From Escherichia coli (GTDB lineage Bacteria > Pseudomonadota > Gammaproteobacteria > Enterobacterales > Enterobacteriaceae), in the NCBI RefSeq assembly GCF_036507355.1, contig NZ_AP027877.1: 64,000 bases of DNA, one strand, 5' to 3'. Below, piece after piece: positions 14,201-20,200 of the stretch. The position numbers are program-made. The number at the start of each line of letters is the position of its first letter. The stretch's first letter is position 1.

Positions 14201-17200
14201 TCGGCACTGTGACGCTGCGGGTCGTTAAACAGATTCACCAGCTCGCCGCTCTCTTCCAGGTTAAAGCCCACCTGGCGCGCCTGGCGCAGTAAGGTCAATT
14301 CATTGAGATGCTGCTGCGTGTAGGTTCGATAACCATTTTCGCTGCGCATCGGCGGCGTCACCAGCCCCTTCTCTTCATAGAAGCGAATGGCTTTGCTGGT
14401 CAGGCCGGTAATTTTTGCTACATCGCTAATGTTCATCGTTCGCGCAACGCCTCCTGTGCTTTGTTAAAGGGTTTCAACAGATAATCCAGCACGCTTTTTT
14501 TGCCGGTGCGGATATCGACCGTCGCCACCATACCGGGGAATATCGGAAACTGCTGTTTATGTTTATTTTCCAGATGGTTGCTGAAAGTGCGAATGTATAC
14601 CCGATAGTAATAAACATCGCGCCGCACTTCATCCTGCACGGTGTCCGGTGAAATCACCGCCACTTCCCCCGGCAGACCACCGTAGATGGAGTAATCGTAG
14701 GCGGTTATTTTCACCAGCGATTTTTGCCCCGGATGGATAAACGCCACATCGCGCGGGGAGATTTTTGCCTCAATCAGCAGTTGCTCATCCAGCGGCACGA
14801 TGGTCATCAGTTTACCACCGGGGGCAATGACGCCGCCAACTGTGGTGACGTCAATATCCTGAACAATGCCACGAACTGGCGCAGTAAAGTTGAGCCTGGT
14901 GAGGGAGTCTTCACGCCCACGGATCACCGAACGCTGGGTTTCCACTTCCGCATTGGCTTTCGCTAACTCTTCCCGCGCCTGAACGTAGTATTGCGTGCGC
15001 ACGTCGCTGAGTTTGTTTTCCAGTTCATTGGCCTGGCGTTGCAGGCGCAGTACTTCGACGCTGCTCGCTGCCCCCTGTTTTACCAGCGGCTGGGTCATCG
15101 CCAGTTCGCGATTGACCAGACTGATCCCCTGCGTCAGCCCGGTGGTGGCTTTGTTCAACCCGTCGCGGCGAGTGTTGTACAACGCCGTTTCCGACTCGAT
15201 AAGTTCGGGGAATTTATTCAGTTCGTCAGGGAAGACCAGCGGTTTATTGCTCACTTCCGCCCGCAGCCGCGCCGAGGTTGCCAGCGCCGCGTACAGCCGT
15301 GACATCGATTCCTGAACGTCGGATTCCGTTTTGGTGCGGTTAAGCTGCGCCAGCGGCTGGCCCTGTTCAACAATATCGCCAACCTTGACGTCGAGATGAT
15401 ACAGAATTCCGCCTTCCAGCGACTGCACCACCTGTTCGCGCCCGGAAGGTTCTACCGTGCCGCTGCCGGTGGTGACTTCATCAAGCTGGAAGTACCACGC
15501 CCAGCCGAGAAAACAGAGCAGCATTACAGCGGTAACGCGTACCGCCAGCGCCGAACGCGGCAAGCGGGGTTCAGTCAGGCCACGGTTATATTGCAGTTGT
15601 CCGTTCATGCGGCAGACCCCTTATTCTTCTCCTGCAACACCACCCGTCGCGTCGTGGGTTCGCCCTGTTCACGCAAAATGGCCTCTTTCGCGCCGTCCAT
15701 CACAATCCGCCCCTGATCCATCACGATTATCCTATCCACCAGTTGCAGCATCGCCGTGCGGTGAGTGGCGATAATCAGCGTGCGATGCCCAATCCACTGT
15801 TTCAGTTGTTCGATTAAATGCGCTTCTGCCATTTCGTCCAGCGAGGCGCTGGGTTCGTCGAGCAGGACGATATTGGGTTGAGAGATGAGTAGCCGCGCCA
15901 GCAGCAGCGTTTGCCGCTGACCACCAGAGAGGCCAAATCCCCCTTCCTGAATCATGTAGTTGAGGCCGTTTTTCTGCTTCTGCACAAAGGGCAGCGCCCC
16001 GCTGAGGGTTAACGCACGTTCGATATCTTCATCGCTGGCCTCCGGCATCCCCATGGTGAGGTTTTCCCGCAGTGAGCCGAAGAACAACCGCCCGGTCTGG
16101 CTAAGCAGCCCCATGTCGCGGCGCAGATCTGCCGGATCAAGCTGCCCGATACTGATGTTATCCAGCAATACCTGCCCCTGCTGGGCGATACGCATTCCGG
16201 CGAGCATTTGCAGTAGCGTTGACTTACCCGCGCCGTTGCGCCCGAGAATAGCGATTTTCTCTCCGGCCTGAATGTTGAGTTTGCCGATCGCCACATCGGC
16301 AATCTTCTCTTCTTCGTCGTAATAAAAGATAGCGTTGCTGAACTGATAATTGCCGTGCAGCACCGCTTTATGCACCAGTTTGCCGTGTTCCGGCTGATCC
16401 ACGGGGCGCTTCATCAGTTCATCCAGGCCGTTACGCGCTACTTTTGCCTGCTGCCAGCGCGAGAGCACGCCGGATATCTGCGACAGCGGCGCAATGGTGC
16501 GCGAAGCCAGGATCGTCGTCCCGACCAGCGCGCCGGTGGTCATGTCGCCGTTCATCACCATAAAGCAGCCCACCAGCAGCACCACGACGTAGACGATGGA
16601 CTGCACTTCCTGGGTCCAGGTGAGCAGCAGCCCGGTGAGAAAACGTTGCTTCATGCTGATGGACGAGGCCACGTCGTTGGTGTGGTTCCACTGATTCTGA
16701 AAACGCTGTTCAGCGCGCAGCAGTTTAATATCTTCAATCGACTGCACGGCCTCCACCAGCGTAGCGTTGCGTACAGCCGACTCACGCATCCCTTCGTTCG
16801 CCAGCCGCGCCAGCGGGCGTTGCACCAGCAGGCCGGGGATCACCAGCAACGGCAGCGCCAGCAAAACCACCAGCACCAGCCAGCCGCCGATCATCCACAA
16901 AATAAAGACAAACAGCAGGAAGAACGGCAGATCCGCCACCGCGCCGATGGTGGTGGACGTAATCAGCTCCCGCACTGATTCCAGCTCGCGGATCTGCGAG
17001 ATAAACGATCCGGTGGATTTCGATCGCACGTTGTTTTTCAGCCGTAATGCGTGACCAAACACGCGGTCCGAGATACGCAGATCCGCCCGCTTGCCGATCA
17101 CATCAGAAAGATGCGTACGCACCATGCGCATACAGAACTCAAACAGGATCGCCATCATCACCCCGGCGAACAGCACCCATAGCGTCGGATAGGACTGCGC

Positions 17201-20200
17201 AGGAACCACCCGATCGTAAACCTGCATCGAGAAAATCATCGCTGCCAGCGCCAGCACGTTCGCCACCAGTGACGCCAGCATAATATCGCCATAGCGCCGC
17301 CAGTCTTTTAGCGAGAGGTTCCAGAACCAGTTCGCCTGATACGGGCGAATATAGTCATCCACCCGCGCGTCAGGGATGGCGCTGAGAGGGCGCAGCAGCG
17401 CCAGTTCGACGATTTTATCCTCGACATCCGCGACGTTAAGCGTGGTTTCCAGCCCTTCGTCACCGCTGAACTGAACGCTGATATTGTCATGATTGTCGCG
17501 ACGGGTGATCACGCCAATCTGCTGATTATCAAACACCGCGATCAGCGGCAGACGCCAGGGGTTAAGCGAATCGGCGGAAAACTCCACCAGCCGTAACCCC
17601 ATTCCCAACTGCCGCGCCATGTCGGTGAGTAACTCCTCCCGCTTACTGTCGCGCTCCCAGTTGACGGTCGCGCGCACATTCTCCTGAGAAAAATCAAGGC
17701 GGTAATAGCGCGCCACGGCGATCATCGCCTCCAGCCAGGCTTCCACGGACTGGGCATTTTTTTTCATTATCTACACCACCATCAACTGATGATTCGCCAG
17801 CAAAGTGGCGAGGTCGGTGTGCACGCCCGTCAGCGTGACCACGTTAGTTGTCGCAAAAGTGCCGCCCGTGCCGTCGCGGTCGATCTGCACGATGGTGTCG
17901 CTGCCGCTCTGGGTGACTTTGACAAAGTCACCGATGTTTCCGGCCTGCGCATCCAGCGTTGCTACGCCGTTGACGTAGCTGGCTTTGCCGTTGCCGGTGT
18001 AGCCGCTGCCCTGCAACAGCTCGCGGATATCAATACGATCGGTGTCGGCGGTGCCTTCCCAGGTGCCTACCGTAAAGCCATTCACCACATCCGATCCGTT
18101 GCCGCCGGTAGCGTCGCTGGCGTTGAGCAGTTTATAGAGCAAGGTGTCATGGCCGCCGTTGCCTATGTTGAGCGTGTCGTTGCCGCCGCGCCCTTCCAGT
18201 TGGTTATCGCCGCTGCTGCCGGTCAGAATGTCGTTAAAATTCGAGCCGGAAATGCCTTCGATATTGGTAAATGTCGAGGTGTTAAAACCGGTGGCCTGCG
18301 CGGCGGTGCTGCTTAAGTTCGCGGTCACGCCCACAGTCGAAAGCCGGAAATCAACCACGTCCATCCCGCCGTTCGCCAGCCACGTTCCGGTGCCGGAGCT
18401 GTACACCCAGCCGCCGGAACCGTCGTAAGTGTCGGTGCCTGCGGTGGCGAAGAAGGTGTCGTTATAGCCGGTGCCGACGAACTTGCCGTTGTTGCTCGCG
18501 GTACCCGCTTCGGCGCTGAGATCGTAAGCGTGAGTGGCATCGGTGGCCTGTAAACCGCCCCAGCTGGTGTTGACCGTCTGGTCGATATTGCTGGCGGTGG
18601 TGCCGGTGGATTTGATCAGCACCGCGTTGTAGGTTTCTCCGGCATTCAGCCCGTAGAAGTTGACCAGCGCCGAGGTGTCGTTAACCCCCATCCCCGACTG
18701 CGGGTTAATGATTTGCGTGGCGACCAGCACTCCCGCCGAGTTGTACAGCTTCACGGTATTGCCGTAATAGACATTAATACCGTTAGGATCGGTAATGCGC
18801 AGGTGCAGCGAAGTACCGTAGCTCACCGTGTTGGTGTTGCGGATCAGGAACACGCTGCCCGACTGTTTGGTCACCAGTACATCAACCGCGCCGTCCCAGT
18901 CGTAATCCATTGCCGCCACGCCGCTGGTGGTACCGCTCTGGCTGCCGCCGAGGGCCGATTGCGTCCAGTTGCTGGCACCACCAACGTTAGTGTAAAGATA
19001 CGATTGTCCGGTCTGGGCGATACGGGCGATATCCATCAGACCGTCATGGTTCCAGTCCACCGCCAGGCTAAACTGGCTGGCGTAGGTGGTTGCCGTTGCG
19101 CCCACCGCCACCGGGCTACCCAGTACGCCGTTGGTGTTGAATAACAGCGAGCCGTAGTTAGCTCTTCCCTGGCTGGCGGGCAGGAAGAGATCCATATCGC
19201 CGTCACCATCGAAATCGGCCCAGGTCATGGAAACGCTGCTGCTCATCGCGCCACTGCCCGTCCCGCTCAGGAAGGTATTGGTGGTGTTCTGCCCCCAGAC
19301 AAACGTCCCATTCCCCTGGTTGATGAGCGAAGATAGCGTGTAATAGTTGTTCAGGTTGTAGGTGTGCTGAACCAGGTCGATCCTGCCGTCATTGTTCAGA
19401 TCGACGCCAGAACCTTCGTTGAGCGAAAGATACCCCGTCACCGCCCCGCCCACCGTGGCGCTACCGCCGCTGTTCGACGTGGTGGAGTTACCTACCAGCG
19501 TACCTGCGTTGTTCCACAGGAAGGTGTTGGAGTCCGGCCCGCCCGCGTCGCCAATCCAGAAGTCGAGATAGCCGTCGCCCTCTTTATCAAATGCCACAAT
19601 CGAGCCGTACCACGTCAGGGTGCCGACGGTGACCTGAATAGCGCTGGAAAAGGTGCCGTCGCCGTTATTGGTAAAGCCGTTGATATAGCCTGTACCGTAG
19701 TCATCACGGGTGATAAACAGATCGCCCGTGCCGTTACGGTCGTAATCGGCGATGGAGCTGGTGGCGTAGTTGTTGCCGCTCTGATACAGCGTCAGCGCGG
19801 TCTTCGACCAGGTGAGTGGGTCAGTCGATTGCATTACCTGCTGGTTTGCCAGCACCGTCCACATCCCGTGCGAGTCGAGGCCGTAGGTCAACCCCCAGGC
19901 GGTGGTTTTGCTGGCGGTAGTCCAGGTCGGTGTGTAATCAATCGCCGCGTTAACCGTCACCGTGCCGTTGCTAATATTGGCGTTATTGCCGTTGCCCGCC
20001 GAGCTTTTTACCTGCGCAGTAACGGTATAGGCGGTCGCGGAAACTGTCAGCGCATCGGTATCCGGCAACTGTACATACCAGGTGTTGTGCGCCGGATCGA
20101 CCACTACCGCGCCGCCCGGTTCAGAGGTGTAGGTTTTGCCGTTGATCACCACTTCAACATACTGCCCACTGGCAAGCGCGGCTGTGATCACCCCGCTGAT

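What the first reader, a model, noticed from the sequence alone, without database searches (positions are those of the whole stretch)
15605..17767. The ABC exporter has a cysteine-free C39-like N-terminal domain
The first ~150 residues before the transmembrane domain contain no cysteine, so the domain cannot be an active C39 peptidase. This matches the HlyB/LapB subgroup, which exports large substrates carrying an uncleaved C-terminal signal. It fits the RTX-like C-terminus of the adhesin and argues the transporter is dedicated to it.
Basis: partly seen in the sequence, partly recalled or inferred. Interest (0 to 1): 0.35.

Follow-up and report, generated by a model that had tools for sequence, protein, structure and literature searches.

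The report
Inactive C39-like domain on adhesin exporter
The ABC exporter beside a giant E. coli adhesin gene starts with a protease-shaped domain that has lost all its catalytic residues, a known and ordinary feature of LapB/LssB-type type I secretion pumps.

Summary
The 720-aa ABC protein (15605-17767, minus strand) has Cys only at 212 and 401, so none lies in the N-terminal domain. Absence of Cys alone is weak evidence (about 17% by chance), and 27 of 35 relatives carry a Cys somewhere in this domain.

The decisive evidence is positional. The domain has the C39 fold (AF2 pLDDT 89.7; Foldseek and profile hits to 3B79, the HlyB CLD, PCAT1, LahT and ComA). All three catalytic positions are replaced: Cys to Ala10, His to Ile84/Gly85, Asp to Ser101.

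The domain also lacks the Trp77/His83 pair of HlyB. It belongs to the LssB/LapB family (TIGR03375, 836 bits, above cut-off) and not to the HlyB family (TIGR01846, below cut-off).

The locus runs TolC-like OMP, adhesin, ABC, HlyD adaptor. It is E. coli O-island 28, the SiiEA system, which a 2025 study links to adherence. ATPase motifs are intact, and the N-terminal domain is under strong purifying selection.

In this window the adhesin gene is broken by a nonsense codon and a frameshift.

Verdict: real, correctly read in outline, and already known. Low interest.

The parts
15605..17767 (-). ABC exporter, 720 aa, an LssB/LapB-family type I secretion permease/ATPase and the orthologue of EHEC Z0634 ('HlyB28')
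   Evidence: TIGR03375 scores 836.4 bits against a cut-off of 693.1. RefSeq names the orthologues 'type I secretion system permease/ATPase'. It differs at 6 of 720 residues from the O55:H7 CB9615 orthologue.
17378..17767 (-). N-terminal C39-like domain (aa 1-130), catalytically dead
   Evidence: AF2 gives pLDDT 89.7 and pTM 0.80. Foldseek hits include 3B79, 7N87, 7SGR/3ZUA, 4RY2, 6MPZ and 3K8U, with E from 1.7e-7 to 1e-4. A family profile hits the same structures in the PDB, with E from 1.8e-11 to 4.5e-3. Pfam PF03412 is below threshold at 19.1 bits against 22.
17738..17740 (-). Codon for Ala10, which sits at the position of the C39 catalytic Cys (PCAT1 C21) and of HlyB Tyr9
   Evidence: Alignments. 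The family column is P/A/S/G and others, with Cys in 1 of 35.
17513..17518 (-). Codons for Ile84-Gly85, at the position of the catalytic His (PCAT1 H99, HlyB H83)
   Evidence: HlyB H83 aligns with I84 and PCAT1 H99 with G85. The family columns are V/L/I and G/A, with no His.
16499..17284 (-). Transmembrane domain (aa 162-423)
   Evidence: Pfam ABC_membrane, E 1.5e-31
15848..16279 (-). Nucleotide-binding domain core (aa 497-640) with all motifs intact
   Evidence: Pfam ABC_tran, E 1.6e-27. Walker A GRNGAGKS at 509, LSGGQ at 613, Walker B IVLLDE at 633, H-loop THR at 668.
14433..15608 (-). HlyD-family periplasmic adaptor (391 aa). Its start overlaps the ABC stop codon (ATGA).
   Evidence: TIGR01843 scores 328 bits against a cut-off of 209. 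The junction is shown.
37752..39107 (-). Dedicated TolC-family outer-membrane channel (451 aa)
   Evidence: TIGR01844 scores 416 bits against a cut-off of 225
17771..37649 (-). Giant BapA-related adhesin gene siiEA. Here it is split into three ORFs (2590, 2781 and 1221 aa).
   Evidence: NF047714 adhesin_SiiEA scores 512.7 bits against a cut-off of 425 on the N-terminus. Both large ORFs have many Big_13 repeats. Intact 6925-aa orthologues exist in O55:H7 and O157:H7.
29877..29879 (-). In-frame TAG, where intact alleles have CAG
21510..21511 (-). One extra T (ACCATTCGCC against ACCATCGCC), which causes a frameshift
17783..18091 (-). Type I secretion C-terminal target domain of the adhesin (uncleaved signal region)
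   Evidence: TIGR03661 T1SS_VCA0849 scores 34.7 bits against a cut-off of 17.6, at aa 1116-1218 of the last ORF
18143..18247 (-). RTX nonapeptide repeat block of the adhesin
   Evidence: PF00353 scores 23.7 bits against a cut-off of 23
37254..37637 (-). Adhesin N-terminal BapA prefix-like domain (a candidate retention module), with a TAAG motif at aa 97-100 (37350-37361)
   Evidence: PF22783 E 5.9e-18. NF033677. Motif check.

Best explanation
The gene encodes the inner-membrane ABC component of the E. coli O-island 28 / SiiEA type I secretion system. It is a member of the LssB/LapB family. It has three parts. (1) A cytoplasmic N-terminal domain of about 130 aa keeps the papain-like C39 fold, but all three catalytic positions are substituted (Cys to Ala10, His to Ile84/Gly85, Asp to Ser101), so it cannot cleave a leader peptide. 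(2) A transmembrane domain (Pfam ABC_membrane, aa 162-423). (3) A nucleotide-binding domain with intact Walker A, signature, Walker B and H-loop motifs. Shown here: fold, residue substitutions, family membership, operon context and purifying selection. Inferred from the families: the protein works as a dimer with the HlyD-type adaptor and the dedicated TolC-like channel. Together they export the giant SiiEA adhesin C-terminus first, using its uncleaved C-terminal target domain. Also inferred: the dead C39-like domain serves as a non-catalytic docking, chaperoning or assembly module. The HlyB CLD does this for HlyA, but through different residues, because the HlyB Trp/His pair is absent here.
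For: Family membership: TIGR03375 scores 836 bits against a cut-off of 693. The HlyB, PrtD and bacteriocin-ABC models all fall below their cut-offs. The N-terminal domain alone gives TIGR03375 E 1.6e-19 against TIGR01846 E 3.5e-3. Fold: AF2 pLDDT 89.7. Foldseek's top 23 hits are all C39 or C39-like domains. The family profile hits 3B79 (1.8e-11), 3ZUA (8.2e-7) and 7N87 (6.9e-6). 3B79 is itself LssB-type. Dead active site. Constraint: pN/pS of the N-terminal domain is 0 to 0.045 between E. coli alleles. W11 is kept in 32 of 35 relatives, and P74 and R135 are invariant. ATPase motifs are intact and the genes are tightly packed: 3 nt separate the adhesin stop from the ABC start, and the ABC and adaptor genes share an ATGA overlap. 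The substrate carries TIGR03661 and RTX repeats. Literature: LapB lacks both the C39 Cys and the CLD Trp and forms a separate subgroup (10.1101/198937). Single-gene mutants of O-island 28 (ABC, adaptor, OMP, adhesin) lose adherence (PMC12758282).
Against: No experiment addresses the N-terminal domain of this protein or of any LssB-type exporter, so its docking role is an analogy. The residues HlyB uses (W77/H83) are not conserved here, which weakens that analogy. In this window the cognate adhesin gene is interrupted twice. In this strain the exporter therefore has no full-length substrate encoded next to it, unless the lesions are sequencing errors. No complete E. coli genome in the collection matches the adhesin region above 98.1%, so the lesions could not be cross-checked.
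Confidence: 0.87

Rival explanations
1. It is an HlyB-type RTX-toxin exporter. Its C39-like domain would bind the RTX repeats of the unfolded substrate in the way the HlyB CLD binds HlyA.
For: HlyB (7SGR/8DCK) aligns over residues 10-700 at E 1.5e-80. The nucleophile is replaced, as in HlyB. The substrate has an RTX block. The O-island 28 paper names the gene hlyB28.
Against: TIGR01846 scores 389 bits against a cut-off of 725. The N-terminal domain alone scores only 15.7 bits (E 3.5e-3) on the HlyB model, against 69.7 bits on LssB. HlyB W77 and H83 correspond to V78 and I84, and those columns vary across the family. The substrate signal is the VCA0849-type domain and there is only one weak RTX block.
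Confidence: 0.07
2. It is an active peptidase-containing ABC transporter (PCAT-like) that uses a non-canonical nucleophile to process a substrate.
For: The C39 fold is retained. There is a weak Pfam PF03412 hit, E 0.0012.
Against: Ala10, Ile84/Gly85 and Ser101 occupy the triad positions. No Cys or His column is conserved at those sites in 35 relatives. PF03412 and TIGR01193 are below their cut-offs. No small double-glycine-leader peptide gene was noticed next to it in the ORF lists and annotations inspected, though none was specifically searched for.
Confidence: 0.02
3. The N-terminal domain is a functionless evolutionary remnant, and the exporter works like the appendix-free PrtD/HasD class.
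For: All catalytic residues are lost. The appendix-free class shows that a T1SS can work without such a domain (review PMC8277102).
Against: Purifying selection on the domain is as strong as on the rest of the protein: pN/pS 0 to 0.045, with 0 to 2 amino-acid changes against 7 to 14 synonymous ones. Family-wide motifs are conserved: W11, S27, G55-L56, W71-R-L-P74, SGD101-103, RP126-127. The fold is confidently predicted.
Confidence: 0.04

Closest known systems
EHEC O157:H7 O-island 28 T1SS: Z0634 'HlyB28' with Z0635, Z0608 and the Z0609/Z0615 adhesin (Niu et al. 2025, PMC12758282)
   Same: The same locus sits between ybaT and cueR, with the same gene order. The O55:H7 CB9615 orthologue from the same locus differs from the window protein at 6 of 720 residues. 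According to the paper, every component is required for early epithelial adherence.
   Different: The paper does not analyse the N-terminal domain; 'C39' does not occur in its text. It names the gene after HlyB, although the protein fails the HlyB model. In this window the adhesin gene carries a nonsense codon and a frameshift, whereas CB9615 and LSU61 have an intact 6925-aa gene.
LapB of Pseudomonas fluorescens (LapEBC) and LssB of Legionella pneumophila: the LssB/LapB family, TIGR03375
   Same: The score is above the curated family cut-off over the full length. The N-terminal domain lacks both the C39 Cys and the HlyB-type Trp, as described for LapB. The substrate is a giant repeat adhesin with an N-terminal module, Ig-like extenders, an RTX block and a C-terminal signal, and there is a dedicated TolC-like channel.
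   Different: No LapG protease or LapD c-di-GMP receptor gene lies in the 64-kb window. The adhesin is BapA/SiiEA-type. No direct sequence comparison with LapB or LssB themselves was made; only the family model was used.
PDB 3B79, the N-terminal C39-like domain of a Vibrio parahaemolyticus toxin-secretion ABC protein
   Same: It is the best match by both structure and profile: Foldseek E 1.7e-7 with TM 0.62/0.75, and profile E 1.8e-11. It is itself LssB-type (TIGR03375, E 1.7e-21) and has Pro at the nucleophile position.
   Different: Identity is only 20%. It has Leu where this family has the near-invariant Trp11. It is a structural-genomics entry with no functional data.
HlyB C39-like domain (PDB 3ZUA; HlyB/D complex 7SGR)
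   Same: It has the same fold and the nucleophile is replaced (Tyr9 against Ala10). It is a non-cleaving exporter of a large substrate with a C-terminal signal.
   Different: HlyB keeps His83 stacked on Trp77, whereas here those positions are Ile84 and Val78. The HlyB family model is not met.
Active C39 peptidase domains of PCAT1, ComA and LahT
   Same: The papain-like fold is shared (Foldseek E 3.8e-7 to 1.2e-4). Helix 1 and the 'RLP' strand align.
   Different: These domains have a Cys/His/Asp triad and an oxyanion Gln, and they cleave double-glycine leaders of small peptides. All of these positions are substituted here.

Membership tests
LssB/LapB-type T1SS ABC exporter (NCBIfam TIGR03375) | Full-length score above the curated cut-off | tested here: met
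   836.4 bits against 693.1, aligned 10-701 to model positions 2-692 of 696
LssB/LapB-type T1SS ABC exporter (NCBIfam TIGR03375) | N-terminal domain lacks both the C39 catalytic Cys and the CLD Trp (Smith et al.) | tested here: met
   Ala10 and Val78 occupy those positions. The family columns are variable. The N-terminal domain alone matches TIGR03375 at E 1.6e-19.
LssB/LapB-type T1SS ABC exporter (NCBIfam TIGR03375) | Encoded with a giant adhesin substrate, a HlyD adaptor and a dedicated TolC-like channel | tested here: met
   The adhesin gene is, however, interrupted in this window.
LssB/LapB-type T1SS ABC exporter (NCBIfam TIGR03375) | Linked LapG (PF06035) and LapD (PF16448) regulators; this defines the Lap subtype, not the whole family | tested here: not met
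   Neither was found among the window ORFs or the syntenic annotation. The rest of the genome could not be examined.
HlyB-type CLD exporter (NCBIfam TIGR01846) | Full-length score above the curated cut-off | tested here: not met
   389.4 bits against 725.55. The N-terminal domain alone scores 15.7 bits.
HlyB-type CLD exporter (NCBIfam TIGR01846) | Conserved Trp77/His83 stacking pair in the CLD | tested here: not met
   V78 and I84 in the HlyB alignment. The family columns are E/Q/V and V/L/I.
HlyB-type CLD exporter (NCBIfam TIGR01846) | Catalytic Cys replaced by a non-nucleophile | tested here: met
   Ala10 aligns with HlyB Tyr9
C39 peptidase-containing ABC transporter (PCAT; Pfam PF03412, TIGR01193) | C39 papain-like fold at the N-terminus | tested here: met
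C39 peptidase-containing ABC transporter (PCAT; Pfam PF03412, TIGR01193) | Catalytic Cys, His and Asp (with oxyanion Gln) | tested here: not met
   A10, I84/G85 and S101 occupy the triad positions. N4 sits where the Gln would be, by counting 6 residues upstream of the nucleophile; this is inference from the sequence.
C39 peptidase-containing ABC transporter (PCAT; Pfam PF03412, TIGR01193) | Scores above the curated cut-offs | tested here: not met
   PF03412 scores 19.1 against 22. TIGR01193 scores 255.5 against 523.85. None of the 120 listed homologues carries a precomputed PF03412 hit.
C39 peptidase-containing ABC transporter (PCAT; Pfam PF03412, TIGR01193) | Small substrate with a cleaved N-terminal double-glycine leader | not tested
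   The adjacent substrate is a roughly 6600-6900-aa adhesin with a C-terminal target domain. No search for small double-glycine-leader peptide genes was made.

The most novel reading that the evidence does not exclude
The LssB/LapB-type N-terminal domain may be a third functional class, not merely a more degenerate HlyB CLD. It has lost the C39 triad and the HlyB Trp/His pair. It keeps its own strongly conserved set of residues: Trp11 directly after the former nucleophile, Ser27, Gly55-Leu56, Trp71-Arg-Leu-Pro74, Ser-Gly-Asp101-103 and Arg-Pro126-127. This set could recognise something specific to surface-retained adhesins, such as the VCA0849-type C-terminal target domain or the N-terminal retention module, instead of RTX repeats. 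A related point: E. coli SiiEA carries a canonical LapG-type TAAG site at residues 97-100, but no lapG or lapD lies in the neighbourhood. Either an unknown protease releases the adhesin, or it is permanently retained.
Probability: 0.25. Interest if true: 0.45.

Novelty: already known. Interest (0 to 1): 0.13.

Why it matters
The practical value lies mainly in annotation. The exporter of the E. coli O-island 28 / SiiEA adhesin system should be filed as LapB/LssB-type, not as HlyB-type or as a peptidase-containing transporter. Its N-terminal domain should be treated as a non-catalytic module. This suggests that LapA-style two-step secretion with surface retention, not HlyA-style toxin release, is the better model for how this adherence factor of pathogenic E. 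coli is displayed. What the conserved, dead protease-fold domain actually binds is still untested for the whole family, but that question is not specific to this window.

Tried and rejected
1. The word-indexed homologue search with the N-terminal domain alone returned only short fragments, almost all from E. coli, which were useless for a family profile. The exhaustive representative search replaced it and gave the 35-sequence alignment A1.
2. Pfam on the full-length protein listed no C39 hit at E <= 0.01. The domain alone gave only a sub-threshold hit. The C39 relationship was therefore established by profile-to-PDB search and by fold search.
3. A single-sequence phmmer search of the domain against the PDB found only PCAT1, at E 0.04, which is not significant alone.
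4. The first full-length PDB search was dominated by ABCB1 matches to the transmembrane and ATPase parts and said nothing about the N-terminus. A query of residues 1-288 fixed that.
5. I tried to cross-check the adhesin lesions against a near-identical genome. No complete E. coli genome matches that stretch above 98.1%, so sequencing error cannot be excluded.
6. The published version of Smith et al. 2018 (PMC5869472) is not held, so the bioRxiv version was used.
7. I considered and rejected the idea that Ser101 or another residue could act as an alternative nucleophile. Ser101 sits at the Asp position and is not conserved (18 of 35).

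
Full report
**Observation**

The ORF at 15605-17767 on the minus strand encodes a 720-aa protein. Its ATG lies two codons after the in-frame TAG that ends the upstream adhesin gene, so there is no hidden N-terminal extension. Cysteine occurs only at residues 212 and 401.

This fact alone carries little weight. About 17% of 150-residue stretches at a typical Cys frequency would be Cys-free. The whole protein has just two cysteines. In a 35-sequence alignment of the same domain from diverse relatives, 27 members do contain a Cys somewhere. What matters is which residues sit at the catalytic positions.

**Is the domain C39-like?**

Sequence evidence from the single protein is marginal.
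- Pfam Peptidase_C39 scores 19.1 bits, under the gathering score of 22.
- PCAT1's peptidase domain is hit at E 0.04.

I collected relatives of residues 1-156 from an exhaustive search of 1.84 billion representatives and aligned 34 of them with the query (A1). The profile finds C39 or C39-like domains in the PDB:
- 3B79: E 1.8e-11
- HlyB C39-like domain 3ZUA: E 8.2e-7
- PCAT1 peptidase domain 7N87: E 6.9e-6
- LahT 6MPZ: E 2.7e-3
- ComA 3K8U: E 4.5e-3

An AlphaFold2 model built on A1 is confident, with mean pLDDT 89.7 and pTM 0.80. Its 23 Foldseek matches at E <= 0.001 are all C39 or C39-like domains, led by 3B79, 7N87, 7SGR and 3ZUA. The fold assignment is therefore solid.

**Catalytic residues**

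Three independent alignments place query Ala10 at the nucleophile position. These are phmmer against 7N87, phmmer of residues 1-288 against HlyB and PCAT1, and the family profile against 3ZUA and 7N87. That position is PCAT1 Cys21 (Ala in the 7N87 construct) and HlyB Tyr9.
- The catalytic His (PCAT1 His99, HlyB His83) aligns with Gly85 or Ile84.
- The catalytic Asp (PCAT1 Asp115) aligns with Ser101.

The PCAT1 residue numbers come from my own knowledge of the protein and are consistent with the index offsets in the tool output. The ComA and HlyB residues are given in the review PMC8277102.

Across the family, the nucleophile column is P/A/S/G/N and others, with a single Cys in 35. That one sequence has no His at the His column. 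The His columns are V/L/I and G/A. The result that would have refuted the finding, a conserved Cys/His pair, is absent.

**Which family?**

NCBIfam places the protein in TIGR03375 (type_I_sec_LssB) at 836 bits, above its cut-off of 693. The other models all fall below their cut-offs:
- TIGR01846 (HlyB): 389 against 725
- PrtD model
- bacteriocin-ABC model

The N-terminal domain alone gives the same answer: TIGR03375 E 1.6e-19 against TIGR01846 E 3.5e-3. HlyB's Trp77/His83 stacking pair is described as characteristic of CLDs. Here it corresponds to Val78 and Ile84, and those columns are not conserved as Trp or His in the family.

This matches what Smith et al. reported for LapB. [quoted passage not shown] Source annotations of close homologues read 'LapB' or 'LssB family'. 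The nearest solved structure, 3B79, is itself LssB-type.

**Is the dead domain still functional?**

Between the window allele and two other E. coli alleles, the N-terminal 156 codons show 7-14 synonymous changes and 0-2 non-synonymous ones. This gives pN/pS of 0 to 0.045, as low as in the rest of the gene. Family-wide conservation points the same way:
- Trp11, directly after the former nucleophile, in 32 of 35 sequences
- invariant Pro74 and Arg135
- near-invariant Ser27, Gly55, Leu56, Pro127 and Asp133

The ATPase motifs are intact. The domain is a constrained, non-catalytic module. Its specific role is inferred by analogy with the HlyB CLD and has not been shown. Candidate roles are substrate docking or chaperoning, or contacts within the exporter-adaptor assembly.

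**Context and substrate**

All genes run in one direction on the minus strand:
- TolC-family channel (37752-39107)
- giant adhesin (17771-37649)
- ABC exporter
- HlyD adaptor (14433-15608)

Three nucleotides separate the adhesin stop from the ABC start. An ATGA overlap joins the ABC and adaptor genes.

The adhesin N-terminus meets NCBI's SiiEA model (512.7 bits against 425) and carries a BapA prefix-like domain. Its body is made of Big_13 repeats. Its C-terminus has FG-GAP repeats, one RTX block and the TIGR03661 type I secretion target domain.

The flanks are E. coli core genes: copA-glsA-ybaT on one side and cueR-ybbJ-qmcA on the other. The ABC gene is present in 959 of 5426 complete E. coli genomes.

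This locus is O-island 28 of EHEC O157:H7. A 2025 study reported that the island and each of its genes are needed for early epithelial adherence and mouse colonisation (PMC12758282). That paper does not discuss the N-terminal domain and names the gene hlyB28.

Dedication of the exporter to the adhesin is well supported. The support comes from operon structure, the matching signal domain and the published genetics, not from the C39-like domain.

**A complication in this window**

Intact alleles exist in O55:H7 CB9615 and O157:H7 LSU61, each 6925 aa. Aligned against the siiEA allele of strain 100181 (locus L001), the adhesin gene here has two lesions:
- a CAG-to-TAG change at 29879-29877
- one extra T at 21510-21511

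Together they split it into ORFs of 2590, 2781 and 1221 aa. Only the last ORF retains the secretion signal. The exporter, adaptor and channel genes are intact. Either the adhesin was inactivated recently in this strain or the sequence contains errors. No near-identical genome was available to decide between these.

**Verdict**

This is an inactive C39-like domain on a type I secretion exporter of a giant adhesin. Two refinements apply: the type is LapB/LssB, not HlyB, and the diagnostic is the substituted catalytic columns, not the absence of cysteine.

All of this is already covered by a curated family model, by the 2017/2018 LapB work and by the 2025 O-island 28 study. Novelty is 'already known' and interest is low.

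The one open question is what the conserved dead domain of LssB-type exporters binds. It concerns the whole family, not this window.

Noticed in passing
window 29877-29879 and 21510-21511 (minus strand): The giant adhesin gene siiEA is interrupted by an in-frame TAG (CAG in intact alleles) and by a one-base insertion. This gives three ORFs of 2590, 2781 and 1221 aa, while the exporter, adaptor and channel genes stay intact. It may be a recent pseudogene or a sequencing error.
   Followed up: partly
window 37350-37361 (minus strand; adhesin residues 97-100): The adhesin N-terminus has a canonical LapG-type cleavage motif, TAAG, inside the 80-150 window used by Smith et al. A Gly-rich hydrophobic stretch follows it. 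The motif is identical in the O55:H7 and O157:H7 alleles and appears in 4.4% of composition-matched shuffles. No lapG or lapD gene lies in the 64-kb window.
   Followed up: partly
window 14433-14436 (minus strand): The stop codon of the HlyD-adaptor gene overlaps the start of cueR (ATGA). The copper-responsive regulator gene is therefore packed directly behind the T1SS operon, and copA lies on the other side of the island.
   Followed up: no
window 12081-13349 (plus strand): A YadA-anchor trimeric autotransporter gene of 422 aa lies just beyond cueR. The corresponding genes in other E. coli strains are annotated at 1017-1050 nt, so its length varies between strains.
   Followed up: no
alignment A1 (relatives of residues 1-156), sequence P0097: One distant family member has a Cys (KICWLNS) exactly at the former nucleophile column but no His at the His column. 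This looks like an isolated reversion with no partner residue.
   Followed up: no
window 17705-17707 (minus strand; ABC residue 21) and alignment A1 column 23: 23 of 35 relatives have His in an 'A-R-H-Y-R' motif in helix 1, where this protein has Tyr21. This is the only conserved His column in the domain, and it is not at the catalytic His position.
   Followed up: no
L002 (NC_013941.1 621041-641818) and L005 (NZ_CP038336.1 4077339-4098116): O55:H7 CB9615 and O157:H7 LSU61 carry a single intact 6925-aa siiEA gene. The EDL933-based O-island 28 paper treats the adhesin as two RTX proteins (z0609 and z0615). This suggests either a split or a mis-annotation in EDL933.
   Followed up: partly
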